Of a stretch of DNA of 62,620 nucleotides, positions 25,101 through 48,870 are shown piece after piece. Made by a program: the position numbers and the translations under genes. This DNA comes from a virus (Duplodnaviria > Caudoviricetes). Positions within the stretch are counted from its first letter, which is position 1. The number at the start of each line of letters is the position of its first letter. The stretch lies in the IMG/VR virus record IMGVR_UViG_3300008110_000094, positions 1-62,620 of that record. One strand, written 5' to 3'. Below the pieces are notes generated by a model. The model was not told the origin of the DNA and made no database searches. It saw nothing but the letters and a program-made list of their open reading frames with translations.

Positions 25101-28100
25101 GACCCGAACGCGCGCGGATCGACAAGGTGATCGAGCGTGCCAAGAAGGCCGCCGCCGACGCGGCCAAGCCCGCCCCCTCGCCAAAACCCGCCGAACCCGA
25201 TATGCTCCCGGCACAAGCGGAGAATGAAGATGTCGTTCAGCCGAGCGCAGTACCTTCAAGCCCTGCAGGATCAGAACCCGGAGCAAGCGCGGGAACTGCG
25301 CCGCAGCGGGCAGATGTCGAAGCACCTCGCGGACAAGGCGAAGGAGTACGAGGCGACGGAGCGCGCGGCGATGGCGAACGCCGACCCGAGCGACGAGAAC
25401 CTCGCACGGATGATCCGCGAGCAGGTGCAAGCGGAGACGTTCGACCTGCCGATGCAGCGGTAGCCGACAAGCGCCCTGACGCGGAGGTCAAGGGCGAGAA
25501 CCACGTCATTGAAGCCGGTGCGCTGGGCGAAAGCCGCCCGTGGCGCCAGAAGGCACTCGACAATATCCGCGCCATCGAATTGATGCGCCAGATCGAGGCA
25601 GAAGGCCGCCCGGCGACCAAAGCCGAGCAGGCCGAGCTTGCGCTCTATGTCGGCTGGGGCGGTATTCGCAACGCCTTCCCCGATGCCCAAGGGGCTTACG
25701 GCAAGGGCTTCGAGACGATCGGCAAGAAGCTGCGCGAGCTGCTTTCGGACACCGAATACAAGACGGCTCAGCGCTCGATCCAGTACGCGCACTACACCAG
25801 CGAAACGATCGTCCGCGAAATGTGGCGCGCGGCCCAGCAGCTTGGGTTCAAGGGCGGCAAGGTGTTCGAGCCCGGCATGGGGGTGGGCAATTTCGCGGGC
25901 ATGATGCCGACCGACGTTTCGGCGGCCAGCACCTATCACGGGCTCGAGCTTGACCACACGACGGCCCGCATCGCGCGCTTGCTCTATCCGCGCTTCGGCA
26001 TCCGGCAGGACGATTTCACGAAGGCCCCGATCCCCGCCGACACCTACGATCTGGCGATCGGCAACCCGCCCTTTGCCGACGTGGCGATCAAGTCCGATCC
26101 CGCCTACGCCAAGCATGCGTTCCTCCTGCATGACTATTTCTTCGCCAAGTCTCTCGACGCGGTGCGCCCCGGTGGGCTCCTGATGTTCGTCACGTCGGCG
26201 GGCACCCTCAACAAGATCGACACCGCCGCGCGCGAATACATGGCCGACCGGGCGGATTTCGTCGGCGCCATTCGCCTTCCTGGCGATGCCTTCGAGAAGA
26301 ACGCCGGAACCAGCGTCACGACCGACATCATCATTCTGCGCAAGCGGCTCCCCGGCGAGACAGCCGGCAGCAAGGCTTGGACCGAAACCGTCGAACGCAC
26401 CCTGCCCAACAAGGACGGGGCCAAGCAGTCCGGTGCGGTCAATCGCTGGATCTCCGAAAACCCGGAAATGGTGCTCGGCGACGAAGGCTTTTTCGACAAG
26501 CTCTATCCGGGCCGGTACGGCGTGCGATCGAGCGAAGGCGACTTTGCGCCCAAGCTCAAGAAGGCCGTCGATGCGCTCCCCGCCGACGTGATGACGCCGT
26601 GGCAGGAAACCCAGGCCGAACGCGCCGAGGTCGATTTCGGGACCAAAGAGCGCAAGGACGGCTCGTTCTATCTCGACGCCAGCGGTCGCTTGATGCAGAT
26701 GCGCGACCGCGTAGGCCAACCCGTTCCGCAGCGCGGGAAGGGTGCCACGGGCGGCAAGACGGGCGCGGAAATGGCCCGCATCAAGAAGCTGGTCCCGATC
26801 CGCGATGCGCTTCGCGCCGTTCTGGACGCGGACCTGTCCGAAGATTCCGCCAATGCGGCCAAGGCCCGCAAGCGGCTCAATGCCGCCTACGACGAGTTTG
26901 TTGCGGAGTTCGGCCCCATCAACAAGGCCGAACTGTCCGAGCGCCGCCCCAGCGTCGTGCAGCAGGAAAGTGCGCGCTCGGACGCGCGCGAAGAAGCCCG
27001 GTTCAACGGTCTGCCGTTCGACGAAGGGACGTTCGATCCGCGCCAGATGATAGTGCAAGGCAAGTCGCTGGCCGAAATTGCGCGTGCCCGGAACGCGATG
27101 CGCGAGGAATACGCCAAGGCCGGAAAGACGTTCGACGAGGGCACGTTCGATCCCGACGACATGCCCGACATCATCATCGACAAGCGCCCCAACGTCGATG
27201 CGTTCATGGACGACCCAGAGTCCTATCGCTTGCGCGCGATCGAGGACTACAACGACAACACCGGAGAGGCCAAGAAGCGGCCGATCTTCGAGCGCAACAT
27301 CATCACGCGCGAAAAAGAGCCCGAAATCAAATCGGTCAACGACGCCTTGCTCTACGTCCTCAATCGGCGTGGGCGCGTGGCGATCGACGAAATCGCGGCA
27401 GCGGTCAACATCACCGTCCCGCAGGCCATCGAACAGCTTGGCGACCGCATCTTCAAACTGCCCGGCACCCAGGACGCCTACGAAACGCGCGACGCCTATC
27501 TGTCGGGCAACGTCCGCAAGAAGCTGCTTGAGGCCCAGGCGGCGGCCGAGCGCAATCCCGAGTTCAAGCCGAACGTCGAAGCGCTCGAGGCTGTCCAGCC
27601 GACACCGCTTACCCCGTCTGAAATCTCGGCCAATCTCGGCATGCCGTGGTTGCCGACTGACGTGATCGAATCCTTCGGCACGGAAATCGGTCTGACCAAA
27701 CTGAAAGTCGGCTATCTGCCCGCCTTGGCGTCGTGGAACGTCTCGGGCGACGATAGCTCGTCGGCCGCGCGCACCGAATGGGGCACCGCCGAACGCTCGG
27801 CGCCGGAACTGATTTCCGACGCGCTCAATCGGCAAGATCCGAAAATCTACGACGAGGTTCGCCAGCCTGACGGCACGAAAACCCGCGTTCTGAACACCGT
27901 CGCGACCCAGGCCGCCCAAGACAAACTGCAAGCCATCAAGGCCAAGTTCTCGGAATGGGTCTGGTCGGATGCCGCCCGTGCGGATCGTCTGGCGACCCTC
28001 TACAATGACAACTACAACAACCTCGTTGTGCGCCAGTACGACGGCGACTATCTCACCACCCCCGGCATTGCGGCCGGCTGGTCCTGGCGCCCGCACCAGA

Positions 28101-31100
28101 AGCGCGCGATTGCCCGCATCATCCAATCCGGCAACACCTACCTCGCGCACGCGGTCGGGGCGGGCAAAACGTCCGAAATGATCGGCGCCATCATGGAACA
28201 GCGCCGGTTGGGGCTCGTGCGCAAGGCCATGGTCGCGGTCCCGAACCACATGCTCGGCCAGTTCACCAAGGAGTTCTACGAGCAGTATCCCACGGCAAAA
28301 ATCGCGGTTGCCGACGAGCGACAATTCCACACCGACCGCCGCAAGCAGTTCGTGGCAAACGTGGCGAATGACGATCTGGACGCGATCGTCATCACGCACT
28401 CGGCCATGGGGCTTATCCCCGTATCCCCGGAGTTCCAAGACGCGCTGATCCAAGAGCAGATCGACAATTTCCGCGACCTTCTCTCGGAGTTGGACAAAAC
28501 CGACCGCATCACGCGCCGCCGCATCGAGAACGCTATCGAACGGCTCGAGCAGCGCTTGTTGGGCAAGGCCAAGAAGCAGGATCAGGTTTACACGTTCGAG
28601 CAAATGGGCGTCGATCAGCTATTCGTGGACGAGGCCCACCTGTTCCGCAAACTCGACTTTGCCACGAAGATGTCGGGCGTGAAGGGAATCAGCCCCGAGG
28701 GGAGCAAGGCGGCCTTCGATCTGTATGTGAAGGCCCGCTACCTCGAAACCATCAATCCCGGTCGAAGCCTCGTCTTGGCATCGGGTACGCCGGTCACGAA
28801 CACGATGGCCGAGCTTTACACCGTCAGCCGGTACATGCAGCCGCAGGAACTTGCGGAGCGCGGCTTGGCGCATTTCGACGCCTGGGCGGCGGCGTTCGGA
28901 GACATGGCGACGGAGTTGGAGCAGGACGCAGCCGGGGGCTACAAGCCGGTCACGCGCTTTGCGCAGTTCGTCAACATCCCCGAACTGTCGGCCATGGTGC
29001 GGCAGCAGATGGACGTGGTTACGTCCAACCAGCTCGAGCAATACGTCGTGCGCCCGAAGATCAAGGGCGGCCGGCGCGAGCTGCATATGTCCGAAAAGTC
29101 GCCGGAATTGGCCGACTATCAGGAACAGCTTGCCGGTCGCATGAAGGCGATCGCCAACCGGAAAGGGCCGCCGAAGCCGGGCGACGACATCATTCTGTCC
29201 GTCATCAACGACGGGCGCCATGCCGCCATCGACATGCGCTTGGTCAATCCCGACCTTCCGGCCGATCCCACGTCGAAGCTCAGCCGCATGATCGACCGGG
29301 TGTTCGACATCTGGCAGAAAACCAAGCGCCAGCCGTTTCACAAGGCCGAAGGCGGCAAGTACACCGAGAAGCCCGTCGATTACGGCCCGGCCACGCAGAT
29401 GATTTTTTCCAATCTCGGCATCGGCGGATCGCGGCCCTTCAACGTGCACACCTACATCGTCAACGAACTGGCCCGGCGCGGCGTGCCGCGCGCCGAGATT
29501 GCGCAGATCGCGGATTTCAAAACCCACGTCGCCAAGCAACGCCTGTTCAACGACATGAACGAAGGCAAGGTGCGCGTGCTGATCGGCTCGACGGCCAAGA
29601 TGGCAACCGGCGTCAACGCCCAGCGCCGCCTCTACGCGCTGCACAACCTCGACCCCCTCTGGTATCCGGCCGACGACGAGCAGCGCAACGGTCGCGCCTT
29701 GCGTCAGGGCAACATGAACCCGGAAATCGAAATCAACGACTACTCGACCAAGGGCACCTACGACTCAACCATGTGGGGCATGATGGCCCGCAAAGCCGGG
29801 TTCATTCAGGGCTTCTTCGAGGGCGACAAGTCGATCCGGTCGATCGAGGATTTGGGCGAGGCGAGCTTGTACGAGCAGGCGAAGGCGCTCACCACGAACG
29901 ATCCCCGCCTGATCCAGTTGACGGAAACCAAGCAGGAATTGGAGAAGGCGCGGCGCCGCCGTTCCGCGTTCGAGTCCGAGGTCTGGTCGGTCAAAGAGAA
30001 GATCGCGGGCGCCAACCGCTCGATTGCCTACGCCAAGCGCCGTATCCCCGATGTCGAAAAGGACATCGCCCAGCGGATCGAAACCAAGGGCGATGCGTTC
30101 AAGGGAGCCGTCAACAGCAAGAAATTCGACGAGCGCCCCGAGTTCGGCAACGCCTTGCTCGCCCAGATGAACGACATCGCGGAACTGGAAAGTCCGACCA
30201 AGGCCAAGAAAATTGCCGAGGTCGGCGGCTTCCCGGTCATGGCGTCATCGCAAAAGGCTTGGTATGCGAAGCCCGGCGACCCGTTGAAGGTGTCGGTCTA
30301 CCTCGACCGCAACGGCGATTTCCAGACCGACATTGCAGAGTCGGAATCTGCCCTTGGTCTGGTTCGCAGCATCGAATATGCGCTCGGAAAGTTCGAGTCC
30401 GAGCGGGACGGCTATCAGAACAACATCGCGGCGGCCGAGCGCACGATTAAGGACTACACGCCGAAGCTCGAAAAGAAATTCGACGGCGACGAAAAGATCA
30501 AGGAACTGGCGGAAAAGCTCGCCCGTCTCGAAGCCGACATCAATGCGGACGCCAAAGCGCGCGATGCGGCGGCGGCGGCACAGCAAGCGGCGACCAAGGC
30601 CGAGGATGAATCCGGCGAAGAAATGCAGTCGCTGCGCAACACGGGCCGGGCGCGCAACGGCGAGAAGGTCAAACTCGGGGCGCCCATCGTCGATCGCAGC
30701 CTTGATACCCTGCGGGCCGAACTCTACGCGGATCTTCGCGAAGAACTGGACCGGATCGGGCTCACCGACGTTGCCCTGAACCTTCCCGACTATATCGCGC
30801 GCGGGGACGGGGAAGGCGGGGTCCAGTATTCGGCCGGCCGCCAGCGGTTCTGGGGCGACGCGCAAGTGCTGATCGAGATTGCCTTGACCGAAGCGAACGG
30901 CGCCGAGGTTCAAGTCGATCCAAACTCGACTCTGCACCACGAAGCCGTCCATGCCATGAAGCGGCTCAACCTGTTCAGCCCGGCCGAGTGGAAGGTGCTG
31001 GCTGCGCGGTCGGAAGCCGTGTGGGTCAAGGAATACGGCCTGACCGACAAGGACTCCGGCTACAATAACCTGCCCAAAAACCTGATCCTCGAGGAAGGCA

Positions 31101-34100
31101 TCGCCCGAGCCTACGAGGCTTGGAAAGAGGGCCAAGAGGGGGCGATGAAGGGCGGCCTGATCGCGCGGGCCTTTGCCAAGATCAAGCGCTTCATCGAGGC
31201 GATCGGCAACGTGTTCCGGGGCCGGGGCTTCAACACGGTCGAAGGGCTGTTCGAGAAGATCGACGAGGGCAAGATCGGCCGCCGTGGGCGCGAGGCGCGG
31301 CACGCAGATCCCGATGGGCCGCGCAAGAATTTCAAGCCCATGTATGCCGATGTGCCGGGCGAACCGGCGCCGAAGACAATGGCCGAAAATCTCGCACGCG
31401 GACGGGCGGCGATTGCGAAGGTGCTGGCCGAGCAGACCGATGTGCGCCACGCCGCTTGGCGTCCCGAACTCGGCTGGATCGATTTCATCTGGGGCGACGA
31501 CGCCAAAGGCATCGCGCACGCCATCAAGGGGCGGATCGAAAAAGACGGCATGTCCCGTGCCGACGCCGAAACATTGGTGCGCCGCATCCCCGATGTCATC
31601 GCGCGCGGTCGTCTAAACCCATACTTCGTCACGCCAGAGCAGCGCGTTGGACGCACGATTGTCTGGAACAACCAGACGGTTGTGCTGCGATTTGAAATCG
31701 ATGGCGTTGATCGCCGCTGGGTCATCACTTCGCACGAAGGCATGAGCAAAATGCCGAGCGGCGCCAAACAGATTTCGGAACAGCGGGCGGAGGAATTGAT
31801 CGCCGATGCGACGGTGAGGGGTTCGGGCGCCTCGTCCGTTGCTACGCAGGGTGAGCTTCGCGCGAACCTACGTGACCAAGCCAAAGCGGCTGCCAGTGGC
31901 GACACTGGACCCGGTATTTCGACCGGGCTAGGTACGGCTAGCGGTTCCCGCCGAAGCGGCATCTCGCCCACCCAGGGAGCGGCGACGGGCAAAGATATAC
32001 CCGAAACCGACTCCGATGGCAACCCGGACGGCAGCAACGACGACGCCATGTACTCCCTTCTGCCGAAGGACCAAGCCTCGCCGGCAGAGTCCGAGCGCAT
32101 GGCGGAACTGGCCGGGGAAGAAATCGTCTCGGGCACCGAGCGCGATTTCGTCAACGACGCTGGGCTCGTCAAGCGCTGGGTTGTGCATCCCCGCACCATC
32201 GCGGCCTACGACAAGGATTTCGTGCCGGTCTATCGCGCCGCCGTTCGCCAGTTCGAGACGCGCGACGAGTTTGCGGCCGAAATCGCCCGCAAGGCCCAAG
32301 CCTATACGGACCTGACGCCCGAGGACCGCGCCCAGGTCGATAAGCTGCTTGAGCTTGGTCGCCTGGAAGGGACGGTCTATGGCGACGCCGCGCTGAAAGA
32401 CGGCGTGACCAACGATCCCAGCGCCAACGAGGGCCGCACCGAAAACGCCGTCCTCACCAAGCCCGGCGAAACCGTCACGCTCACCGACCGGCAGATCGAG
32501 GGCTACAAGGCTGCACGGGCTTCGATGAACACGGCCTTGGACCTGTTCAAAGCCCAGATCATCGAAGAATGGGGCTACGATCCGACCGAGATCCGCTCGA
32601 GCGCCGACATCCTCGCCCTCATCACCGACGAAACCGGCGACCGGGAAGCCGAGCAGCACAAGGATGCTGCGAAGATCGTGCGCGAAATCGAGCAGGCGCA
32701 GCGCACCGGCTACGTCCCGTTCACGCGCTGGGGCCAGATCGGCATTGCGGTTCGCAGGGCCGATAGCCGCCAGATGGCGCTCGGCATCGACGGCGAAGCC
32801 TCGCGCCCCTACACCACGATCCACTACGAAATGATCGAGGTCGATGGGGCCGTCTCGCGCCTCATGCGCGCCGCCCGGAAGCTGAAAGGCCGCAAGACGG
32901 CCGAACAGCTCGGGCAGTTCCCCGAGGTCAAGGCCCGGTTGGACGCGCTCAAGGCCAAGTACGAGGGCGACCCCGACGTGCGGTTCAGCGTGTTCCAAGT
33001 CGGGGAGGGTGGGCCGCTCGAGCAGGGCGTGAAGCTGTCCGATCTGGACATGCTGGCCGAGGTCGGGCGGATCGACGACAAGGCCTGGGAGCAGGTGCGC
33101 GAGCAGCTTGAAAAAGCGATCAAGATGCGCGGCTTCCGCAAGCATTTCTTTGGCTCGAAGAACCTGCCGGGCTACTCGGTCGATTTCGAGCGCGCGATCG
33201 CCGACTACACGATCGGCATTGCCGGGTATCTGGCCCGTCGAAAGTACGGCTCGATCTGGGATGGTGCAGTGGGCAAGATTCCGACCACCAAGCCCAAGCT
33301 TCGCGAATACGCCCAGAAATACCGGGACTACACGCAATCGCCCCAAGAAGAATTGCAGATGCTGCGGCAGTTGGGGTTCGTGTTCTACCTTACCTCACCC
33401 GCTTCTGCCTTGGTCAACACGACCCAGGTTCCGCTTGTGACGGTGCCCTGGCTATCGCAGTTCGCGCCTGGGCCCAAGGTGATGTACCACGTCACGAAGG
33501 CCTACAAGGACGCCTTCGCGATGACGACGGCAAGCCGTGGCATGGACGTGTTCGACCCCGCCAAAGCGCCGGAGGACGTTCGCGAAGCCTTCCAGAAAGC
33601 GTGGGACGAGGGCTTCTTTGTCCCGTTGAACACCTGGGAAATGATGGGCACCGCGCAGGCCCGCAGCCAAGTGGTTCGGCGTCTGTCGAAAGTCAGCCGC
33701 ACGGCGGTCGATGCCATCGCGCTTGGGTTCACCGTAGCCGAGCGCTTGAACCGGATTGTGACGTGGATGGCGGCCTATCGTTTGGGCAAGCAGGAAACCG
33801 TGCGGCAGTCGGCCCGCACCATCCTTGCGAAGAACGCACTCGCCCGGTCGGACGAGCTGTTGCGCGGCTACACCCCGGAAAAGTTCGCAGGCTTCGCGAT
33901 CGACGAAACCCAATTGCGCATGGGCAAGGTCAACCGTCCCGCGATGATGCGCGGCGCCGGGGCGGCGATCTTCCAGTTCAAGGGTTTCACCATGCAGATG
34001 ATCGAATTGCAGTTCCGCATGGTTCAACAATATGCAGGCCGCCGCCCGAAAGTCGCAGTCGGCGCCATGTGGTTGCTGTTGATGCTGACGGCTGGCATCT

Positions 34101-34933
34101 GGGGCGCCCCGTTCGGAGACGATCTGAAAAACATCTTGGAGTGGATGAAACGCAAGTTTGGCGGGACCGATCTCGACCTTGATACCGAACTGCGCGAGTT
34201 GGTCGTCGAATTGACCGGCTCGCCGGGGCTTGCAGAAGCGTTCTCGCGCGGTACGTCGCGCGCGGCCGGCGTCGATCTGCAGCGCATTGGCATGGGCAAC
34301 GTCCTACCGGATGATGCGCAAGAACTTGGCGGTATTCCGCTTGATCTAGCCTGGGGGCGTCTCTCGCAGGCAATCGAACACGGCAAGCGTGGCAACTGGA
34401 TGCTGGCTTTGAGCGAAATGATGCCCGCGTTCCTCAAGAATCCGATCGTCGCCATGTCGTGGGGCACGGAAGGCGTCAGATCCCAGACATCGGGGCGCGT
34501 TGTTATTCCGCCCGAGAAAGTCACGGCGGGCGATATCGCACAGAAGGCGATTGGCTTCACCCCGGCCGCCATCGCCAACCAACGGGAGTCCGAACGCGCC
34601 CAGACACGGGCGAACACCGCGACCAAAGAGGTCAAGGACCGCTACATCGGGGAACTGGCACGCCTTCGTGCGGACATCCTGCGTGCCGACACCGCCAACG
34701 ACGCGGCCAAGTCTCGGGTGCTCGAGGAACGGTTCGCGCGCACCCTCGACGAGATCCGCGCCTTCAACGAGGGCCGCCCGCTGCACGAAATGGTCATCGT
34801 CAATCCGAAAACCCTCAAGGATCGGATCAAGGAAGAACTGTCCGGGGCGGCGGTGCGCGACAAGAACGCCCCCAAACAGGCCCGCCCGCGCCGCGAGGAA
34901 ATCGAGCGAATCTACGGCGAGCAGCCCCGATAG
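22163..34933 (+). CDS. darB: Giant (4256 aa) DarB-like large polyvalent ejection protein: InPase-like, N6-adenine MTase, SNF2/SF2 helicase, HExxH metallopeptidase-like, PBECR-like nuclease and PLxRFG-like C-terminal regions
   Basis: AGNYK..H....I.IETP.G..RSG....W...M..HYG...GT.GADGD.LD; FEPGMGVGNF and NPPF (26063-26074); AVGAGKT (28151-28171), DEAH (28628-28639), QRNGRALRQGN; HEAVH (30938-30952); WIDFIWG....GIAH; YVPFTRWG. Confidence 0.93.
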   Translation: MARFQGIPLDQAPIEQAPSMAAPRAPRFRGTPLEGPKPVAAPAPVAALAPPPIAEAPAPSEMPDINPPTMPQAAPQPAAGGLGAQIMRFGKDAGASVVAGTGSIMQFPGQVYGLATGDFDTMSTRGGEAVRQFGQSLKSPELQEKERQAQAVIAEAEKDGFGAEVGAVLKTYLSDPVLLANFTVEQLPSLLATMGFGKLAQWGTQVAAKVAQRGAVSAATLSRAGQAGAITGGAAMQGASVGDETRDAILRLPDATFAASPAFQALVASGIDPQAAKEQLALEGARLAGAAGAGISGATATLLPGVERMGFGQASTQGIIRRVLTGGAAEGFQEGLEEGGGRFAQNVAVQQIDPDQSLLQGVGAQGTMGALPGAVTGAGVAALSGREDAPITPSIAVNGGPPVRVEPTFDAPTQPPPPPNPRAGARFGTGDTVLQPAPLSTPRSRSDLAADLADPRPIAEIDAERQQRAREQQVQLASQYGYPAIGSAFTFTLPDGETVQGVMEGVQQTSTEGLARIRGADGQMYVLGADEFTVTEGTGDKADPVVVKTAEDVDIAAQQVEAPTPAQAKAGNYKHAHLEWEGFDIAIETPQGGTRSGVGKDGKPWSVTMPHHYGRLKGTIGADGDQLDITIGPNPEQNGVVWVIDQIDPDTGKFDEHKIMAGFEMGEEAEQAYIDGFSDGRGIDRIGAVERMDLAQLRQWIANGNTKKALAYNGTPKYREYRIPAPAQAPGDNYRGGQRGPAFDLPASQPAPAAEPPQAPAEGAPSRENGAAASPEPAPAPVVRPVQPKPQTLAEPEQAPDWYKELTETGRRLLYVRAGFTAGEVNRRAKVTWNNISPEVRKRLETAAKAPQPEAAPRPAYIGKGPDFASGRNDALAGKPRVMPTYFTKPYGKNARNWLLGWDAGKAEADQTKASEAPPAAPQKAPRPNDIFFNNKQELVEYLTDRLPKGYEVDRGGDGPGSPVRLFGPGDKLIDEWVGRPERARIDKVIERAKKAAADAAKPAPSPKPAEPDMLPAQAENEDVVQPSAVPSSPAGSEPGASAGTAPQRADVEAPRGQGEGVRGDGARGDGERRPERREPRTDDPRAGASGDVRPADAAVADKRPDAEVKGENHVIEAGALGESRPWRQKALDNIRAIELMRQIEAEGRPATKAEQAELALYVGWGGIRNAFPDAQGAYGKGFETIGKKLRELLSDTEYKTAQRSIQYAHYTSETIVREMWRAAQQLGFKGGKVFEPGMGVGNFAGMMPTDVSAASTYHGLELDHTTARIARLLYPRFGIRQDDFTKAPIPADTYDLAIGNPPFADVAIKSDPAYAKHAFLLHDYFFAKSLDAVRPGGLLMFVTSAGTLNKIDTAAREYMADRADFVGAIRLPGDAFEKNAGTSVTTDIIILRKRLPGETAGSKAWTETVERTLPNKDGAKQSGAVNRWISENPEMVLGDEGFFDKLYPGRYGVRSSEGDFAPKLKKAVDALPADVMTPWQETQAERAEVDFGTKERKDGSFYLDASGRLMQMRDRVGQPVPQRGKGATGGKTGAEMARIKKLVPIRDALRAVLDADLSEDSANAAKARKRLNAAYDEFVAEFGPINKAELSERRPSVVQQESARSDAREEARFNGLPFDEGTFDPRQMIVQGKSLAEIARARNAMREEYAKAGKTFDEGTFDPDDMPDIIIDKRPNVDAFMDDPESYRLRAIEDYNDNTGEAKKRPIFERNIITREKEPEIKSVNDALLYVLNRRGRVAIDEIAAAVNITVPQAIEQLGDRIFKLPGTQDAYETRDAYLSGNVRKKLLEAQAAAERNPEFKPNVEALEAVQPTPLTPSEISANLGMPWLPTDVIESFGTEIGLTKLKVGYLPALASWNVSGDDSSSAARTEWGTAERSAPELISDALNRQDPKIYDEVRQPDGTKTRVLNTVATQAAQDKLQAIKAKFSEWVWSDAARADRLATLYNDNYNNLVVRQYDGDYLTTPGIAAGWSWRPHQKRAIARIIQSGNTYLAHAVGAGKTSEMIGAIMEQRRLGLVRKAMVAVPNHMLGQFTKEFYEQYPTAKIAVADERQFHTDRRKQFVANVANDDLDAIVITHSAMGLIPVSPEFQDALIQEQIDNFRDLLSELDKTDRITRRRIENAIERLEQRLLGKAKKQDQVYTFEQMGVDQLFVDEAHLFRKLDFATKMSGVKGISPEGSKAAFDLYVKARYLETINPGRSLVLASGTPVTNTMAELYTVSRYMQPQELAERGLAHFDAWAAAFGDMATELEQDAAGGYKPVTRFAQFVNIPELSAMVRQQMDVVTSNQLEQYVVRPKIKGGRRELHMSEKSPELADYQEQLAGRMKAIANRKGPPKPGDDIILSVINDGRHAAIDMRLVNPDLPADPTSKLSRMIDRVFDIWQKTKRQPFHKAEGGKYTEKPVDYGPATQMIFSNLGIGGSRPFNVHTYIVNELARRGVPRAEIAQIADFKTHVAKQRLFNDMNEGKVRVLIGSTAKMATGVNAQRRLYALHNLDPLWYPADDEQRNGRALRQGNMNPEIEINDYSTKGTYDSTMWGMMARKAGFIQGFFEGDKSIRSIEDLGEASLYEQAKALTTNDPRLIQLTETKQELEKARRRRSAFESEVWSVKEKIAGANRSIAYAKRRIPDVEKDIAQRIETKGDAFKGAVNSKKFDERPEFGNALLAQMNDIAELESPTKAKKIAEVGGFPVMASSQKAWYAKPGDPLKVSVYLDRNGDFQTDIAESESALGLVRSIEYALGKFESERDGYQNNIAAAERTIKDYTPKLEKKFDGDEKIKELAEKLARLEADINADAKARDAAAAAQQAATKAEDESGEEMQSLRNTGRARNGEKVKLGAPIVDRSLDTLRAELYADLREELDRIGLTDVALNLPDYIARGDGEGGVQYSAGRQRFWGDAQVLIEIALTEANGAEVQVDPNSTLHHEAVHAMKRLNLFSPAEWKVLAARSEAVWVKEYGLTDKDSGYNNLPKNLILEEGIARAYEAWKEGQEGAMKGGLIARAFAKIKRFIEAIGNVFRGRGFNTVEGLFEKIDEGKIGRRGREARHADPDGPRKNFKPMYADVPGEPAPKTMAENLARGRAAIAKVLAEQTDVRHAAWRPELGWIDFIWGDDAKGIAHAIKGRIEKDGMSRADAETLVRRIPDVIARGRLNPYFVTPEQRVGRTIVWNNQTVVLRFEIDGVDRRWVITSHEGMSKMPSGAKQISEQRAEELIADATVRGSGASSVATQGELRANLRDQAKAAASGDTGPGISTGLGTASGSRRSGISPTQGAATGKDIPETDSDGNPDGSNDDAMYSLLPKDQASPAESERMAELAGEEIVSGTERDFVNDAGLVKRWVVHPRTIAAYDKDFVPVYRAAVRQFETRDEFAAEIARKAQAYTDLTPEDRAQVDKLLELGRLEGTVYGDAALKDGVTNDPSANEGRTENAVLTKPGETVTLTDRQIEGYKAARASMNTALDLFKAQIIEEWGYDPTEIRSSADILALITDETGDREAEQHKDAAKIVREIEQAQRTGYVPFTRWGQIGIAVRRADSRQMALGIDGEASRPYTTIHYEMIEVDGAVSRLMRAARKLKGRKTAEQLGQFPEVKARLDALKAKYEGDPDVRFSVFQVGEGGPLEQGVKLSDLDMLAEVGRIDDKAWEQVREQLEKAIKMRGFRKHFFGSKNLPGYSVDFERAIADYTIGIAGYLARRKYGSIWDGAVGKIPTTKPKLREYAQKYRDYTQSPQEELQMLRQLGFVFYLTSPASALVNTTQVPLVTVPWLSQFAPGPKVMYHVTKAYKDAFAMTTASRGMDVFDPAKAPEDVREAFQKAWDEGFFVPLNTWEMMGTAQARSQVVRRLSKVSRTAVDAIALGFTVAERLNRIVTWMAAYRLGKQETVRQSARTILAKNALARSDELLRGYTPEKFAGFAIDETQLRMGKVNRPAMMRGAGAAIFQFKGFTMQMIELQFRMVQQYAGRRPKVAVGAMWLLLMLTAGIWGAPFGDDLKNILEWMKRKFGGTDLDLDTELRELVVELTGSPGLAEAFSRGTSRAAGVDLQRIGMGNVLPDDAQELGGIPLDLAWGRLSQAIEHGKRGNWMLALSEMMPAFLKNPIVAMSWGTEGVRSQTSGRVVIPPEKVTAGDIAQKAIGFTPAAIANQRESERAQTRANTATKEVKDRYIGELARLRADILRADTANDAAKSRVLEERFARTLDEIRAFNEGRPLHEMVIVNPKTLKDRIKEELSGAAVRDKNAPKQARPRREEIERIYGEQPR
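25178..25222 (+). promoter_or_regulatory. Putative internal promoter and RBS for the nested ORF
   Basis: TCGCCA(25178-83)-N17-TATGCT(25201-06); GGAG at 25219-22. Confidence 0.5.
25230..25463 (+). CDS. Overprinted 77-aa helical protein nested out of frame in the giant gene (TnpV-like)
   Basis: MSFSRAQYLQALQDQNPEQARELRRSGQMSKHLADKAKEYE...MIREQVQAETFDLP; own RBS and promoter; the main frame here is low-complexity R/G/P/D-rich. Confidence 0.68.
   Translation: MSFSRAQYLQALQDQNPEQARELRRSGQMSKHLADKAKEYEATERAAMANADPSDENLARMIREQVQAETFDLPMQR
31829..31990 (-). ncRNA. Putative antisense-encoded structured RNA inside the giant gene
   Basis: Closing stems GCC-CGTC/GACG-A-GGC and GGGTGGGC/GCTCACCC; hairpins CCGC-TTCG-GCGG, CCCGGT-CGAAAT-ACCGGG, CCAGTG-TCGC-CACTGG; upstream promoter. 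Confidence 0.55.
31994..32022 (-). promoter_or_regulatory. Putative antisense promoter
   Basis: TTGCCA(32022-17)-N17-TATATC(31999-94) on the - strand. Confidence 0.6.
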
Positions 34934-35010
34934 TGCGATCCAAACAGAGGAAGCCGAAATTCCGGCCGGTCGCCAATCGATCGGCGGTTTTCCGGTTCTG
35001 GCCCATCCAC

Positions 35011-35040
35011 AAACCCATCCCAAAAGGATGGGTTTTTTCT
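35011..35040 (+). terminator. Rho-independent terminator before the lysis genes
   Basis: AAACCCATCC-CAAAA-GGATGGGTTTTTT. Confidence 0.85.
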
Positions 35041-35117
35041 TGCCCGCTGACCGACGTGCGCGGACGGCCGACTCATCACGCGCGACACTCGATCCTCATC
35101 AAAAAGGACAAATCGAC

Positions 35118-35510
35118 ATGAGCGACTGGCCCTACCGCTATTTCTCTCGCGCTGAAATGGCGTGCAAGCACACTGGTAAGTGCGAAATGAAGAACGAGTT
35201 TATGGTGATGGCCGACGCGCTGCGCGAAGCCTTCGGCAAGTCGATGATCGTCACGTCCGGCTATCGCGACCCGTCGCACCCCGAAGAAGTGAGAAAGCGC
35301 GAGGACCGCGCTCGGCGTGGCCTCCCGCCGCCGCTTTCAACGCACTCGGAAGGCATCGCCATGGATGTTGCTGTGCGCGGTGCCGACGCCGTTCGGTTGC
35401 TCGAGCTTGCGCTGAGCATGGGCTTCCGGGGCATCGGCGTGCAGCAAAAGGGCGACACCCGATTCCTTCACCTGGATACCCGCAAAGAACCGGCAATTTG
35501 GAGTTACTGA
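35118..35510 (+). CDS. Endolysin, peptidase M15 family
   Basis: YF...E.AC, TSGYR...H, S.H..G.A.D, GIG....FLHLD.R. Confidence 0.9.
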   Translation: MSDWPYRYFSRAEMACKHTGKCEMKNEFMVMADALREAFGKSMIVTSGYRDPSHPEEVRKREDRARRGLPPPLSTHSEGIAMDVAVRGADAVRLLELALSMGFRGIGVQQKGDTRFLHLDTRKEPAIWSY

Positions 35511-35513
35511 ATC

Positions 35514-36176
35514 ATGCTTGGAGCAATCATCGGGGCCATCACCGGAATCCCGGCGCTGATCGACGCTGGCAAGGCCATCTTCCAGACAGTCAGCGGAAAG
35601 CCGTCCACGGCCACGTCGGCGCCCGAGCTGAATGACGAGGTCCAAGCCCTTCCTGCCGACCAACAGAAGGCATGGGCAGAAGCCATGCAGGCCAAGATCG
35701 ACTTCTACAAAGCCGAGAGCGCGCGTATCCAGAACGAGCAGGGCGACGTGACGGCCGAAATCCTCGCCGTGCTCGACAAGCCTGCGGCGGCCAAGGTCGC
35801 TATCGAGCGCATGACAACCCGGCCTTGGGTGGTCAAGCGCATGACGCATGTGATCCTTCTGCCGGTCTATGTGATGGTTCTCGACAGCCTGTTGATGGTG
35901 TTCAACGGGCTCTACCGCATGGCGACCGCCCAACGGGATCTGGCCCCCTTCGACCTTTTTGCGGAAAAGCTGTTCGGGGAAGGGTCGCTCTACGCCTCGA
36001 TGTATAACCTCGCCGCCCCCACGGCTGCGGTCGTGGTGGTGTCCTACATCACGGCCAAGACGGTTGAGACGGTGCGAAATGGTGCATCGGCTGGGGACGG
36101 GCTGGCCGGCACGATCGGGCGAGCTGTGCAGGCCGTGGGCGGTATTGTCGGGGCGGTCAAAGGTGCGCGCAAATGA
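35514..36176 (+). CDS. Holin-like membrane protein
   Basis: Follows the endolysin; RPW motif and two hydrophobic helices. Confidence 0.7.
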   Translation: MLGAIIGAITGIPALIDAGKAIFQTVSGKPSTATSAPELNDEVQALPADQQKAWAEAMQAKIDFYKAESARIQNEQGDVTAEILAVLDKPAAAKVAIERMTTRPWVVKRMTHVILLPVYVMVLDSLLMVFNGLYRMATAQRDLAPFDLFAEKLFGEGSLYASMYNLAAPTAAVVVVSYITAKTVETVRNGASAGDGLAGTIGRAVQAVGGIVGAVKGARK

Positions 36177-36247
36177 GGCCGCTCACCTTCGTCACGCTGT
36201 TCTTGGCGGCGTGGGTCGCGCTGACCTATCTCGGGGCGCCAAAATAA
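36173..36247 (+). CDS. 24-aa hydrophobic peptide
   Basis: ATGA overlap; MRPLTFVTLFLAAWVALTYLGAPK*. Confidence 0.4.
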   Translation: MRPLTFVTLFLAAWVALTYLGAPK

Positions 36248-36256
36248 GGGAAGGGG

Positions 36257-36328
36257 GTTGTGCGAGGGGACTCGAACCCCCAACCACCGGAGCCACATCC
36301 CGGTGCTCTACCGTTGAGCTACGCACAA
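36257..36328 (-). tRNA. tRNA-His(GTG), CCA not encoded
   Basis: Cloverleaf TTGTGCG TA GCTC-AACGGTA-GAGC A CCGGG-ATGTGGC-TCCGG TGGTT GGGGG-TTCGAGT-CCCCT CGCACAA C. Confidence 0.9.
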
Positions 36329-36334
36329 ACCAGT

Positions 36335-36760
36335 GACGCGGCGACGGGCGGGGCGTCATCCCCGCATTGTGTGATCCGGCTGTCCGTCGCCAAAGCATCC
36401 GTCCGATAACGGGCTACGGTGTGCCTACGCGCGGTCCGGCTGAGAAGTTGCTTTCCCCTTCATTCGGAAGCCGTTTCCGTCGTCACCGGCTGTTCGCCGG
36501 GCGGTACGGGGCACGCCGCCGCGTCGGAGAGCACAGGGTCTTTGGCGTAAACGCCGGGCTTGCCGATAATCTCGATGCCCTGAGTCCGGCCCTGTGCTCG
36601 CCGCCGAAGCGGGAGTAGATGACGCGGGCCACGCCCGAAGGCAGGCGTATCCCAAAAGGGGCCGGGTCGAAGGTTTTTCGTCCACCCCTAGTCTCCGCAA
36701 GATGCGGCGCTTTATGGCTTTAAGCTACGACCGTATCCCTGCCAACCGCCGCCCGCGTCA
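36335..36760 (-). ncRNA. Cluster of three stem-closed putative structured RNAs upstream of the tRNA
   Basis: Perfect terminal inverted repeats 36335-43/36517-25, 36529-38/36590-99, 36620-29/36751-60; C-UUCG-G loops on the - strand; no credible ORF. Confidence 0.55.
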
Positions 36761-36767
36761 CGGATTG

Positions 36768-36867
36768 TGTATCATAATGGCACGCTCAATCCAAGAGCCC
36801 CCGTGACGGTTTTCTTCGCGGGGAAATGGTGGGAAGAAACAGGAATATTTCGTAACATTATGGCACG
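36768..36867. promoter_or_regulatory. Two operators: TGTATCATAATGGCACG (36768-84) and CGTAACATTATGGCACG (36851-67)
   Basis: Motif matches; the first overlaps a TATGAT -10 for the RNA/tRNA cluster. Confidence 0.7.
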
Positions 36868-36875
36868 GTCGCCAG

Positions 36876-36947
36876 CAAAGACATTGATTTTGAACGCAAA
36901 AATATTCAAAGACGGCAAGTACGCCGAGATGTAAATCAATGAGTTAG
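36876..36947. other. Probable attP region with two IHF-like sites
   Basis: AATCAATGAGTTA (36934-46) fits WATCAANNNNTTR; inverted near-match at ~36878-90; AT-rich; directly downstream of int. Confidence 0.55.
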
Positions 36948-38020
36948 TCATTCTGGCGGCGCGGTTTGTTTCCAACCGGAAACGCGAGGATCGCAGGCCG
37001 CGCAGCCAGATGCGCTTTCAATTTACGGTACGCGGCGATCGAGAGCCCGTCCGTGCGCGCCGCGTACGCTCGCAACATGGACCGGCCGCCGATGCTGTGC
37101 CCGGTGATGGCCGCCGTCTCGGCGTCCGTGCACCCAGCCTCGAGCAATTGGGTTGTGACCGTTCCCCGGATGTCGTGAAAGTGCCGGTCGGCGTCCAAGA
37201 GCCCGGCTTTGGCAAGGGCCTCTTTCCAGCGCGCATTGAAATTCGGGGTGCCCCAGGGGATTCCTCGCGCCTCGGTCGCAAGGATCGTCTCGGCGCCACT
37301 CTTGCGGCATTCCTCGAGCAGCTCGCCCAATTGCGGAAGCTCCATCACGGGCAGGCGCACGATCGGCGGCGGAACCATTTTGGCGGTTTTCGACGGCGTG
37401 TAGGTGATCCAGCCGTCCCAATAGTCCGACCAGCGCAAGCGGCGCAGATCCCCGAGCCTTGCGGCGGTCAACAGGGCAAGCCTCACCATGCGCGACAGAT
37501 CGGGGCTGGCATGTGCCAGCAATTGCGCCAGCATCGCCTCGTCCCAAATCTTGTCGGCCCGCCGGCCGCCCCTGCCCAGCCGATCGATCCCCTTGGCGTG
37601 GTTGACGGTCACGATCCGGCGTTCATAGGCCCAAGAAAGGACCGTCCCCAAGACGCCTGTGATTTTGTCGGCCTTGGCCGGGTGCGCGGCGTGCTCGTCG
37701 CGCAGGGCGTAGAACTCGGTCCTTATGCGGTGGTCGCAAAGGTTCTCGATCGTCGCCCAACCAAGCCGATCCTCGATGATTCCCAAATAGTAGAAGGTCG
37801 CGGCCTGCCAAGATTGCGAGAGCGCCTTGAACTCGGGCGACTTGGTGTAGGCGGCGTTGATCGACCGAAACCCGTGCCCGGTCGATTGCAGGAAGCGCGA
37901 TGGCTCCTTCGCCTTGCGTTGGTAGATGTATTCTTTGATCGTGCCGTCAGCGAGCTTCTTGCGGACGACGTTTCGACCAGCGGGTTTTTCGGGCTTCAAA
38001 GTCGTCATGGGCGACACCAT
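36944..38020 (-). CDS. int: Tyrosine integrase
   Basis: TAARLGD (R), HFHDIRGT (HxxR), TGH, Y; N-terminal arm-binding region; start uncertain. Confidence 0.93.
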   Translation of the reverse strand: MVSPMTTLKPEKPAGRNVVRKKLADGTIKEYIYQRKAKEPSRFLQSTGHGFRSINAAYTKSPEFKALSQSWQAATFYYLGIIEDRLGWATIENLCDHRIRTEFYALRDEHAAHPAKADKITGVLGTVLSWAYERRIVTVNHAKGIDRLGRGGRRADKIWDEAMLAQLLAHASPDLSRMVRLALLTAARLGDLRRLRWSDYWDGWITYTPSKTAKMVPPPIVRLPVMELPQLGELLEECRKSGAETILATEARGIPWGTPNFNARWKEALAKAGLLDADRHFHDIRGTVTTQLLEAGCTDAETAAITGHSIGGRSMLRAYAARTDGLSIAAYRKLKAHLAARPAILAFPVGNKPRRQND

Positions 38021-38204
38021 TCTTGATCCCGGCAATACGGTCAAGGGCTTGGTCTATCTGGCGGCTGTCCCAGCGCGACGTTCCGGGGAGCGGGGCGGGG
38101 ACAATGCCGAGGTCTATCCAACGATAAAGCGTTGAACTCCCGACCTTTAGATACGCCATCACTTCAAGGCGGCGCATCAGGCGCGAGGGCTCACTTTCCG
38201 CCAC
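37947..38204 (-). CDS. xis: Excisionase (AlpA-like wHTH)
   Basis: EV..YL.V..STLYRWI..G..P.P.....RW; overlaps the int start. Confidence 0.8.
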   Translation of the reverse strand: MAESEPSRLMRRLEVMAYLKVGSSTLYRWIDLGIVPAPLPGTSRWDSRQIDQALDRIAGIKNGVAHDDFEARKTRWSKRRPQEAR

Positions 38205-45984: not shown

Positions 45985-46434
45985 TTAAGCGACGATCTGC
46001 CAGTCGTCAGCCAGCACGTCGGTCTGGCTGGCGAGCCACGGGACGAGCGCGCCCTGCACTGTCATCATGTCGATGTGCGGCAAGTAGTCGAACTTGGTGC
46101 CGACAGGCACGCCTGCGAGTGCAAGCGGACGACCTTCTTCGACAGTGAGTTGAATGCTGCCCGGCACGAGGACCAGCCACATGCCTTTGCCGTTCCAGCC
46201 GGCACGCGCAACACGATGGCCTGCCTTGAGGGCGGCGATCGCATGGCCGAAGCTCATAGCATCGATCGGCTGATAAGCAGCCTCGAACACGTCTTTGGGC
46301 GACCAAGAAACGTATCCGTCTGCGTATTGCACATGGTAGCCGGGCCGACCGTCCATCGCTTCCCACGGGTAAGCGGTGATGCGCTTCGTGCCGTAGTAGT
46401 CCTTGGTGGTTTCGGAAATAGTTTCGGCGTGCAT
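45985..46434 (-). CDS. DUF2829 (Tad2-like) protein with N-terminal GY.V.Y.DGY.SWSPK.VFE.AY domain
   Basis: MSFG.A..ALK.G.RVAR.GWNGKGM...PW.ASQTD.LA.DW. Confidence 0.85.
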   Translation of the reverse strand: MHAETISETTKDYYGTKRITAYPWEAMDGRPGYHVQYADGYVSWSPKDVFEAAYQPIDAMSFGHAIAALKAGHRVARAGWNGKGMWLVLVPGSIQLTVEEGRPLALAGVPVGTKFDYLPHIDMMTVQGALVPWLASQTDVLADDWQIVA

Positions 46435-47115: not shown

Positions 47116-48134
47116 TTGAGGAACTCCGCTATCTCTTGGGTTGGTTGGGGTCTGGTATCGAAACGCTCGACCTTGGTTGCGCTGTCCAGAACCAGCACCG
47201 ATCCTGGCGTGTTGAGCTTTGCGATTTCGTCGTAAGAGAGCTTTCCCTTGACCAGAAACGGGGCCGCCTGTTCCTCTTGGCCGCCGTCGTGCTCACGGCA
47301 AAACGGCGTTCCCCACGCAGGGCACCAGCGCTCGCTGCACAGCTTCGACGAGGGGTTGGCCGGGAATGAAGCGGGGTCGCCGGGCTCGATGTTGCGGGCC
47401 GGATCGCCGTTGAGGAACGTATGAAGGGACAGATCCATGTGGCGGATCACGGACACCGCCGCTTGTTCGCACCCTTGCACGTCATAGGCGAAGGTCCGTG
47501 GGGCAGGCTGGGGCTTGTCGATCGCGCAGCGCTGCACGAAATCTTCGGCAATCTCCTTGATCGGAAAGCCGTGGGTGCGCCCAAGCAAGCTGTATCCACC
47601 GAACTGCGGCTTGTGAGAGCCGAAGCGCTGCTTGCCGGTCTTGAGGTCGCGCAAGCGCTCGGGCTCGCGCGCCAGCACATCCGATTGACCGGATAGGGCG
47701 AGGTTGTTTGCCGACCACGGGATGCGAGCCACCAAGCGCTGTTCGACCGTCAGGGGTTCGATTTCGGGAACGATGTGCGCGGCATAGGCTTGCGTCATGC
47801 GAATCACTTGGCGCTCGGCCACGGACTGCGACGGCGTTTCTTTGTCCATGCGCGCGTCGTCCTCGCGCATCTTCTCGTGCAGCGTGGCAACGGCGGCATC
47901 TTGGGCGGCCGAAAGGTTTGGGCTATCTGCCCCGCCAGCTTTTTCGCTGAGCAGCGTTTCCGCGCCCCGGTGGACGGCAGATCCGACCGACGCGCCGATC
48001 GATCCGGCCGGTTGACGGAGTTTGAAGCCTGCAGCCTCGATCAGACGCTTGAAGCTCCGCGCAGCACCCCGACGCGGGCAATCCGGCCAGGACGACAGGG
48101 ACGAGCAGCGCACGGTAATGGTGTCGTCGATCAT
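47112..48134 (-). CDS. PD-(D/E)XK nuclease (RecB/Cas4-like)
   Basis: SSL....CPR, G.A.H, E, G..D, DLKTG, Q...Y, C....C......C. Confidence 0.85.
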   Translation of the reverse strand: MIDDTITVRCSSLSSWPDCPRRGAARSFKRLIEAAGFKLRQPAGSIGASVGSAVHRGAETLLSEKAGGADSPNLSAAQDAAVATLHEKMREDDARMDKETPSQSVAERQVIRMTQAYAAHIVPEIEPLTVEQRLVARIPWSANNLALSGQSDVLAREPERLRDLKTGKQRFGSHKPQFGGYSLLGRTHGFPIKEIAEDFVQRCAIDKPQPAPRTFAYDVQGCEQAAVSVIRHMDLSLHTFLNGDPARNIEPGDPASFPANPSSKLCSERWCPAWGTPFCREHDGGQEEQAAPFLVKGKLSYDEIAKLNTPGSVLVLDSATKVERFDTRPQPTQEIAEFLK

Positions 48135-48415
48135 TCGCGCTCCTTGGCCGCCGACTGAGCGGGCGTGCGGGACGGGTGTTTGACGAAAAGATCGACGCGC
48201 CGGTAATTGATCGGCGGCGACAGATCGTTTGCCAGCCGAACGCAGGCGCGATGTTCGATGCTTGTAAAGCCAGGCCCCAGATCGGCGGTCTGCGCAAAAT
48301 CCAAAGGCTTCTCAACCTTCACCAAGGCATCTTCCTCATGCGCAGGCGCGCATTGGCGCGTGTGGCCTTCTGCAATGAGGCAATAGGCGAGGACGCAGAT
48401 TGCAATCGGGTTCAT
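48131..48415 (-). CDS. Hypothetical protein with hydrophobic N-terminus
   Basis: First ORF of the left operon; ATGA-coupled to the nuclease gene. Confidence 0.5.
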   Translation of the reverse strand: MNPIAICVLAYCLIAEGHTRQCAPAHEEDALVKVEKPLDFAQTADLGPGFTSIEHRACVRLANDLSPPINYRRVDLFVKHPSRTPAQSAAKERE

Positions 48416-48423
48416 TCCGATTG

Positions 48424-48463
48424 CGTATCATAACGTAACGCATGTGGTCAACGTTATGTTACG
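48424..48463. promoter_or_regulatory. OL: two operators (48424-40, 48447-63) overlapping a leftward TTGACC -35
   Basis: CGTATCATAACGTAACG and GTCAACGTTATGTTACG. Confidence 0.75.
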
Positions 48464-48840: not shown

Positions 48841-48870
48841 TTGACCACCGTAACGTAATGTCACACTAAA
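48841..48870 (+). promoter_or_regulatory. PR/OR: TTGACC -35 with operator CGTAACGTAATGTCACA (48849-65)
   Basis: Motif lies between -35 and -10, just upstream of cro. Confidence 0.7.

What the first reader, a model, noticed from the sequence alone, without database searches (positions are those of the whole stretch)
36335..36784. Operator-controlled cluster of three unknown structured RNAs upstream of the tRNA
About 430 nt without a credible ORF is tiled almost end to end by three modules, each closed by a perfect 9-10-bp stem: 36620-36760 (141 nt), 36529-36599 (71 nt) and 36335-36525 (191 nt), plus a UUCG hairpin spacer. The two large modules share ends on the - strand (5' GACGCGG(G)CGGCG ... 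CCGCGTCA 3'), and each has a hairpin just before the 3' strand. An operator overlapping TATGAT lies 7 nt upstream. I cannot match them to a known RNA family. Inference: a polycistronic lytic-phase ncRNA transcript (decoys, sponges or guides) processed along with the tRNA.
Basis: partly seen in the sequence, partly recalled or inferred. Interest (0 to 1): 0.76.

Follow-up and report, generated by a model that had tools for sequence, protein, structure and literature searches.

The report
Structured leader RNA before phage tRNA-His
A temperate freshwater phage carries about 430 bases of non-coding, stem-rich sequence between a repressor-type promoter and its own histidine tRNA gene, most likely a structured RNA made together with the tRNA, but it has no relatives anywhere, so its function cannot yet be tested by comparison.

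Summary
36335-36784 is non-coding. It carries the three stated closing stems, two cUUCGg hairpins and four alternating copies of GACGCGG. A 12-nt regulatory motif ends 7 nt upstream and recurs at the phage's immunity-region promoters. No Rfam family matches.

The window is a complete 62.6-kb temperate phage. The region lies between attP/integrase and the lysis genes, on the strand of tRNA-His. attP is the copied 3' end of a host LivK-type gene, not the tRNA.

Contigs from three RNA libraries of two studies cover the tRNA, module 3 and module 2, but not integrase. These contigs do not show the strand.

Weak points:
- No homologue was found in any collection.
- The phage population is nearly clonal, so covariation cannot be tested.
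- 17 of 622 windows elsewhere in the genome show as many stems.
- The thermodynamic ensemble prefers one nested fold over three separate modules.

Best reading: an operator-controlled, structured 5' leader RNA co-transcribed with tRNA-His, with an orphan sequence and unknown function.

The parts
36847..36870 (-). Upstream copy of the 24-nt repeat. It holds the operator-type motif CATAATGTTACG at 36851-36862.
   Evidence: repeat D1, 79% identical to 36764-36787
36764..36787 (-). Promoter/operator element. The motif CATTATGATACA lies at 36768-36779 and the -10-like TATGAT at 36771-36776. The 15-mer 36763-36777 matches 48419-48433 (early-left promoter) in 14 of 15 bases.
36620..36760 (-). Module 1 (141 nt), closed by a 10-bp perfect stem, with a cUUCGg hairpin before its 3' strand. 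Its 5' strand can instead pair with the 3' strand of module 3.
   Evidence: (I9, I4); not covered upstream of 36644 in the RNA runs
36600..36619 (-). Spacer with a 4-bp cUUCGg hairpin
36529..36599 (-). Module 2 (71 nt): a three-way junction closed by a 10-bp perfect stem. It is the only closing stem that is stable in the full-length ensemble.
   Evidence: z -4.5; P about 1.0; within the RNA contigs of X18, and partly of X19
36335..36525 (-). Module 3 (191 nt), closed by a 12-bp stem with one G.U pair on the - strand. It folds better on the - strand (z -2.74) than on the + strand (z -0.83).
   Evidence: RNA contigs X18 36239-36644, X19 36286-36579, X20 36337-36511
36255..36328 (-). tRNA-His (anticodon GUG), 59.4 bits. 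Position -1 is U and the discriminator is C.
36241..36247 (-). U-rich run (UUAUUUU) after the tRNA, a possible 3' end of the unit. The X18 RNA contig ends at 36239.
   Evidence: no consensus terminator was called here
36860..36934 (+). attP core: a 24-codon copy of the 3' end of a host LivK/LivJ-type binding-protein gene. It is conserved with synonymous changes in related phages.
36944..38044 (-). Tyrosine integrase, last gene of the leftward early operon, directly upstream on the same strand
   Evidence: PF00589

Best explanation
36335-36767 (- strand) is the long, highly structured 5' leader of a small phage transcription unit. The unit consists of an operator-bearing early-type promoter, a leader of about 430 nt, tRNA-His and a U-run.

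The unit sits in the variable accessory slot between attP and the lysis cassette of a temperate alphaproteobacterial phage. The promoter (TATGAT at 36771-36776) shares its -10 and start region with the phage's early-left promoter and carries the same repressor-type motif. The unit should therefore be shut off in the lysogen and switched on with the early genes. This is inferred.

Transcription would start about 5 nt before module 1 (inferred). RNase P cutting at the tRNA 5' end would release the leader (inferred from general tRNA biology). The module 2 and module 3 part is the piece seen in RNA libraries.

Four interchangeable strands, GACGCGG and CCGCGUC twice each, allow two nearly isoenergetic folds. 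One is three local modules, favoured while the RNA is being made. The other is a nested fold whose outer helix reaches the first four bases of the tRNA.

I commit to this reading: the leader is a stable, processed phage non-coding RNA whose fold is coupled to maturation of the tRNA. What it acts on is unknown.
For: - The region is non-coding and lies on the tRNA's strand, with no terminator-like site between promoter and tRNA.
- Promoter and operator: the 15-mer at 36763-36777 matches 48419-48433 in 14 of 15 bases. The latter lies 8 nt before the first ORF of the leftward early operon.
- The motif CRTWATGWYACR occurs 6 times against 0.11 expected. One site (246-257) was not used to build it. 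All sites lie in control regions.
- Structure: the closing stems. There are two cUUCGg hairpins on the - strand only; the window holds 21 UUCG hairpins over both strands, so about 0.08 would be expected here. There is a G.U pair in module 3's stem, and module 3 folds better on the - strand. Module 2 has z -4.5.
- The interiors of modules 1 and 3 are unrelated (alignment z -0.6). Their shared ends are therefore not a duplication remnant.
- RNA: 3 RNA runs from 2 studies hold contigs over 36239-36644, 36286-36579 and 36337-36511, and none over 36645-37400, which includes integrase.
- The same slot in a relative (L087, integrase 44% identical) holds a known non-coding RNA, skipping-rope, codirectional with the integrase gene.
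Against: - No homologue of the region was found anywhere.
- The three closest relatives (integrase 58-62% identical) lack both the region and the tRNA.
- Conservation and covariation are therefore untested.
- Stem counts like this occur in 17 of 622 windows elsewhere in the genome.
- The whole-region z-score is only -2.05 and is equal on both strands.
- The equilibrium ensemble does not support separate modules 1 and 3.
- RNA contigs give no strand. They are low in depth (3-5), could include DNA carry-over, and were selected for holding this stretch. X18 and X19 also hold pieces of the + strand holin gene (35936-36150), so + strand read-through of the late operon is not excluded.
- Module 1 beyond 36644 is not covered in the RNA runs.
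- The -35/-10 spacing is unusual for a standard sigma-70 consensus, and the scan did not call a promoter there.
Confidence: 0.45

Rival explanations
1. An ordinary tRNA precursor leader or spacer. The 430 nt are accessory, non-selected DNA in a variable slot. The stems are what GC-rich DNA gives by chance, and any RNA seen is simply unprocessed or processed pre-tRNA with no function of its own.
For: - No homologues and no conservation data exist.
- 17 of 622 windows elsewhere have at least 3 such stems.
- The whole-region z-score is -2.05 on both strands.
- The slot is variable among relatives: nothing, an SNase-like gene, or another RNA.
Against: - Four alternating GACGCGG copies against 0.23 expected.
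- Two cUUCGg hairpins against 0.08 expected.
- The stems tile end to end without overlap (one search lists exactly these three).
- Module 2 has z -4.5.
- A 430-nt leader is far longer than a tRNA needs.
- A contig of module 3's size turns up in an independent RNA study.
Confidence: 0.22
2. A sib-like retroregulator. The structured RNA lies downstream of the integrase gene, across attP, on the integrase strand. It would be transcribed by read-through of the early-left operon. It would then mark integrase mRNA for decay, or protect it, only when the genome is not integrated, because integration separates it from the integrase gene.
For: - Geometry: integrase (36944-38044, -), then the attP core (about 36890-36940), then the structured region on the same strand.
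- All genes from 48415 down to integrase are on the - strand.
- No terminator-like site lies between integrase and the region.
- That lambda's sib lies beyond attP from its integrase gene is recalled knowledge.
Against: - The region has its own promoter/operator copies between attP and module 1.
- RNA contigs cover modules 2 and 3 and the tRNA, but not integrase or 36645-36943.
- The helices of 10-12 bp are short for RNase III.
- Relatives with the same integrase/attP type lack the region.
Confidence: 0.12
3. The RNA seen comes from the + strand. The late (lysis) operon would read through antisense to the tRNA into the region, and the stems would serve as the 3'-end stabiliser or terminator of the late transcript.
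For: - X18 and X19 hold contigs in the + strand holin gene (35936-36150) as well as over 36239-36644.
- Modules 1 and 2 fold equally well on the + strand.
- The whole region folds slightly better on the + strand, -208.0 against -204.7 kcal/mol.
Against: - Module 3 folds poorly on the + strand, z -0.83.
- UUCG loops and the G.U pair exist only on the - strand.
- The X20 contig begins just after the tRNA (36337), as expected for an RNase P product and not for read-through.
- The promoter motif is oriented for the - strand, like the other - strand promoters.
Confidence: 0.1
4. A DNA-level element. The four GACGCGG sites would be binding or recombination sites: a regulator array, or inverted repeats of an invertible segment acted on by the neighbouring recombinase.
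For: - Four copies in alternating orientation, with unrelated sequence between them.
- The region is close to integrase and attP.
Against: - The shared core is only 7-8 bp.
- The sites lie 150-600 bp from the attP core, too far for arm sites.
- The DNA run laid shows no rearranged joint, although contigs drop rare variants.
- The motif is not enriched elsewhere in the genome: 34 found, 34.3 expected.
Confidence: 0.06

Closest known systems
GOLLD and ROOL large ornate RNAs (Rfam RF01998, RF03087; accession numbers recalled)
   Same: Large structured non-coding RNAs of unknown function, often in prophages and next to tRNA genes, possibly co-transcribed with them (PMC5737381, passages read).
   Different: No cmscan match, even at E <= 10. 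This RNA is smaller (about 430 nt against 581 nt for ROOL), and no conserved family stands behind it.
skipping-rope RNA (RF02924)
   Same: A structured phage-borne RNA of unknown function. In the relative L087 it occupies the same slot, downstream of and codirectional with the integrase gene.
   Different: There is no match in this window. Skipping-rope is about 80-100 nt with its own terminator and is not linked to a tRNA (PMC5737381, passage read; supplements not seen).
Stable RNAs co-transcribed with phage tRNAs and released by RNase P (T4 species 1 and 2 RNAs; P4 CI RNA; P1 c4 RNA). Recalled, not looked up here.
   Same: Small structured phage RNAs cut out of a longer transcript by tRNA-processing enzymes. 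Complementary short strands within one transcript occur, as in the P1 and P4 RNA immunity systems.
   Different: No downstream protein gene exists that such an RNA could regulate.
Lambda sib retroregulation (recalled)
   Same: A structured RNA element placed beyond attP, on the integrase strand.
   Different: This region has its own promoter/operator and a tRNA, is four to five times larger, and is absent from relatives with the same integrase type.

Membership tests
Any Rfam 15 family (4227 models) | cmscan score at or above the family's gathering score | tested here: not met
   the only hit in the window is tRNA at 36257-36328. (E <= 10, 36100-37000): two further chance-level hits outside the modules, at 36809-36840 (E 2.5) and 36916-36956 (E 8.5).
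GOLLD / ROOL | Match to the family covariance model | tested here: not met
GOLLD / ROOL | Prophage context next to a tRNA | tested here: met
   temperate phage, with tRNA-His 6 nt downstream of module 3.
Two-piece (permuted) tmRNA of alphaproteobacteria | tRNA-like domain with a CCA end plus a tag reading frame, detected by ARAGORN or the Rfam tmRNA models | tested here: not met
   Not found at default settings or by Rfam. Only at an 80% threshold does ARAGORN call 36340-36603 (-), with an unidentified 20-residue tag and no CCA. Judged spurious.
tRNA or tRNA pseudogene array | Cloverleaf detectable by the tRNA covariance model or by ARAGORN | tested here: not met
   One search gives no second tRNA-clan hit at E <= 10 in the modules. 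ARAGORN with introns finds only tRNA-His, and the hits at a 70% threshold are scattered on both strands.
skipping-rope RNA | Match to RF02924 | tested here: not met
   for the window. The model does hit the relative L087 at 4913-5009 with 48.1 bits.
Structured RNA family in general | Conservation with compensatory base changes among homologues | not testable with these tools
   No homologue was found. The accessible population is nearly clonal: integrase variants are at least 98.6% identical, and 17 DNA runs hold at least 0.98 of the sampled words.
sib-type retroregulator | Lies beyond attP on the integrase strand | tested here: met
sib-type retroregulator | RNase III-dependent control of integrase mRNA | not testable with these tools
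   needs experiments

The most novel reading that the evidence does not exclude
An orphan, roughly 430-nt multi-domain phage RNA that works as a conformational switch. Four interchangeable strands (GACGCGG and CCGCGUC, twice each) let it toggle between three local modules and one nested fold. The outer helix of the nested fold sequesters the first bases of tRNA-His. This would couple an unknown signal or binding partner to maturation of an atypical tRNA-His that lacks G-1. It would be a new tRNA-linked large phage RNA, comparable in kind to GOLLD and ROOL.
Probability: 0.12. Interest if true: 0.75.

Novelty: new variant of a known kind. Interest (0 to 1): 0.42.

Why it matters
If real, this would be a tRNA-linked structured phage RNA under repressor-type control. 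It would have direct, if weak, expression evidence from environmental metatranscriptomes, in a phage that recurs in many freshwater studies. Such RNAs (GOLLD, ROOL, skipping-rope) are known but functionally unexplained. A compact example with a defined promoter, a defined processing partner (the tRNA) and two testable alternative folds would be an accessible model. As it stands it is a single orphan sequence, so it is a lead rather than a discovery.

Tried and rejected
Homologue searches, all negative for 36335-36784:
- blastn against GenBank phages: 8 records, tRNA part only.
- blastn against plasmids: 1 record, 42 nt.
- nhmmer against 162 integrase-neighbourhood loci from genomes and IMG/VR. 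Only L084-L086 match, and only at 36813-36941; the other hits are tRNAs.
- Whole records of 5 related phages: only chance matches of 24 nt or less.
- 5 candidate host genomes: chance matches of 19-48 nt in 4 of 5.
- IMG/VR exact-pattern scans: module 3 18-mer, 1 chance hit; tRNA 3' 21-mer, 0 hits; both ends of module 3 with a gap, 4 chance hits in coding-like DNA; module 2 19-mer, 0 hits; module 1 20-mer, 0 hits.
- Metagenome scans: integrase, 0 hits; tRNA 5' 24-mer, 2 unrelated tRNA arrays.

Other ideas tried and dropped:
- The neighbour protein P0002 found one relative (63% identical) without synteny.
- Ro/Y-RNA idea: there is no TROVE gene in the phage.
- tmRNA idea: only a spurious call at a relaxed threshold.
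- Paralogy of modules 1 and 3: rejected, the interiors are unrelated.
- Capture of host DNA next to the livK-type attB: 6 host loci show only the attP core and no tRNA-His.
- attP within the tRNA: rejected.
- The structured stretch in L085/L086 (5185-5345, z -2.3) lies between endolysin and holin genes, not in the same slot.

RNA-run cover: parts without cover (36645-37400 in X18-X20) are no proof of absence.

Full report
**Context.** The window is a complete IMG/VR virus record of 62,620 bp with direct terminal repeats. It is a temperate phage.
- Structural and lysis genes are on the + strand up to 36176/36248. They include a 4256-aa ORF, an M15 peptidase at 34500-35510 and a holin-like protein at 35514-36176.
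- A tyrosine integrase lies at 36944-38044 (-).
- A leftward early operon runs from 48415 down to the integrase gene. It includes a PD-(D/E)XK nuclease, an RNase T-type exonuclease, a Tad2-like protein, an SMC-like ATPase and DUF5131.
- A small HTH repressor lies at 48540-48776 (-), facing a cro-like gene at 48878 (+).
- GapR-like, DnaA-C-like and GTA-holin-type relatives point to an alphaproteobacterial host.
- The phage recurs almost unchanged in freshwater and other metagenomes. 17 DNA runs hold at least 0.98 of the sampled words, and the holding runs span 16 studies.

**The observation.**
- tRNA-His (GUG) lies at 36255-36328 on the - strand.
- The 430 nt upstream of it on that strand lack any coding signature. 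No frame has the GC3 excess of the real genes.
- The three closing stems are exactly where stated, and they are the only perfect inverted repeats of 9 bp or more in the region.
- On the - strand the stem of module 3 extends to 12 bp through one G.U pair.
- Two cUUCGg hairpins sit at 36608 and 36639 on the - strand only. The window has 21 UUCG hairpins with stems of at least 4 bp over both strands.
- GACGCGG occurs four times in alternating orientation (36335 +, 36519 -, 36621 +, 36753 -). The window as a whole has 34 copies, as expected by chance, so about 0.23 would be expected here.
- The interiors of modules 1 and 3 are unrelated. The shared ends are therefore not a duplication trace.
- Rfam gives nothing, at the gathering score or at E <= 10.

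**How strong is it?**
- Fold z-scores are -2.5 (module 1), -4.5 (module 2), -2.7 (module 3, - strand; -0.8 on the + strand) and -2.05 for the whole region on either strand. The module borders were chosen after the fact.
- Against the genome itself, 22 of 622 windows of 462 nt have at least three such stems. Five of them overlap this locus.
- In the folded 529-nt putative transcript, only module 2's stem is stable (P about 1.0).
- The 5' strand of module 1 pairs with the 3' strand of module 3 (P about 0.99). This helix can extend to the first four tRNA bases (repeat I4).
- The modular fold (-237.7), a fold with both the outer and the inner helix enforced (-237.6) and the minimum (-240.3 kcal/mol) lie within the model's error.
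- So 'three RNAs' is one of two readings of the same four strands.

**Promoter and operator.**
- The element ending 7 nt upstream of module 1 is real. 36763-36777 matches 48419-48433 in 14 of 15 bases, and the latter lies 8 nt before the first ORF of the early-left operon.
- The derived 12-mer CRTWATGWYACR has 6 sites against 0.11 expected: 36768 and 36851 (both -), 48424 (-), 48452 (+), 48854 (+, 12 nt before the cro-like ATG), and 246 (-). The last site was not used to define the motif, and it lies about 55 nt before another leftward ORF.
- A longer form, beginning CGTGCCA, recurs at 337-402.
- This supports 'operator-controlled'. Which protein binds there, and when, is inferred.

**Where attP is.**
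- The three closest relatives (integrase 58-62% identical; L084-L086) share with the window only 36813-36941.
- That stretch holds a 24-codon + strand frame ending in KDGKYAEM. Its differences between phages are synonymous or conservative.
- The same 24 nt, with at most 2 mismatches, ends a LivK/LivJ-type binding-protein gene of roughly 370-460 codons in 6 of 401 alphaproteobacterial genomes sampled. The reversed control pattern hit 1.
- So the phage integrates into the 3' end of that host gene, and the tRNA is not the attachment site.
- The region therefore lies in the accessory slot between attP and the lysis genes. That slot is empty in L085 and L086, holds an SNase-like gene in L084, and holds a skipping-rope RNA codirectional with the integrase gene in L087.
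- None of the 11 relatives' loci has a tRNA.

**Expression.**
- Three RNA libraries from two studies hold parts of the stretch.
- Laid on 35800-37400, their contigs cover 36239-36644 (X18), 36286-36579 (X19) and 36337-36511 (X20). The last is nearly module 3 alone and starts just after the tRNA.
- X18 and X19 also hold 35936-36150.
- Nothing lies on 36645-37400.
- Contigs give no strand, no true ends and no expression level, and DNA carry-over is possible. This is a weak but real hint.

**Homologues.** None was found for the region in any collection (see Tried and rejected). Integrase identity drops from 99% to 62% among 93 relatives, and the close variants are at least 98.6% identical. Covariation is therefore untestable here.

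**Verdict.** The most likely reading is an operator-controlled, structured leader RNA co-transcribed with tRNA-His, with an orphan sequence and unknown function (0.45). The rivals are an unselected leader (0.22), a sib-like element (0.12), + strand read-through (0.10) and DNA-level sites (0.06).

The closest known kinds are the tRNA-adjacent phage RNAs GOLLD and ROOL (PMC5737381, passages read) and skipping-rope (same paper). The supplements of that paper were not available and may hold context data on skipping-rope.

Noticed in passing
36860-36934 (+), with the 9-bp inverted repeat 36882-36890 / 36933-36941: attP core. It is a 24-codon copy of the C-terminus of a host LivK/LivJ-type branched-chain amino-acid binding protein, conserved next to the integrase gene in relatives L084-L086. 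The same 3' end is found in 6 of 401 alphaproteobacterial genomes sampled. The phage therefore integrates into the 3' end of a protein gene and restores it.
   Followed up: yes
36255-36330 (-): The tRNA-His has U at -1 (G at -2), discriminator C73, a U1-A72 pair and a 7-nt D-loop. It fits neither the usual bacterial type (G-1 paired with C73, G1-C72) nor the alphaproteobacterial type without G-1 (A73, G1-U72, 9-nt D-loop), as both are described in PMC3064791 (passages read). Two unrelated phage-like tRNA arrays (L183, L184) have a similar tRNA-His with G at -1.
   Followed up: partly
48338-48429 (+): ARAGORN's 92-nt 'tRNA-Cys' is not confirmed by Rfam. It overlaps the early-left promoter and the ORF at 48131-48415. 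It is probably a false call.
   Followed up: partly
246-257, 337-402, 48424-48463, 48854-48865: A family of operator/promoter motifs (CRTWATGWYACR, and a longer form starting CGTGCCA) marks the phage's control regions.
   Followed up: partly
45985-46434 (-): A Tad2-like (anti-Thoeris) domain protein in the early-left operon (PF11195, E 2.6e-26).
   Followed up: no
22163-34933 (+): A single 4256-aa ORF in the tail region. It was not examined.
   Followed up: no
L087 4913-5009 (+): A skipping-rope RNA (RF02924, 48.1 bits) lies directly downstream of a related integrase (44% identical), in the slot that the finding occupies in this phage.
   Followed up: partly
L085 / L086 5185-5345: A stem-rich intergenic stretch of about 160 nt with a cUUCGg hairpin lies between the endolysin and holin genes of two relatives (z -2.3). 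It has no Rfam match.
   Followed up: no
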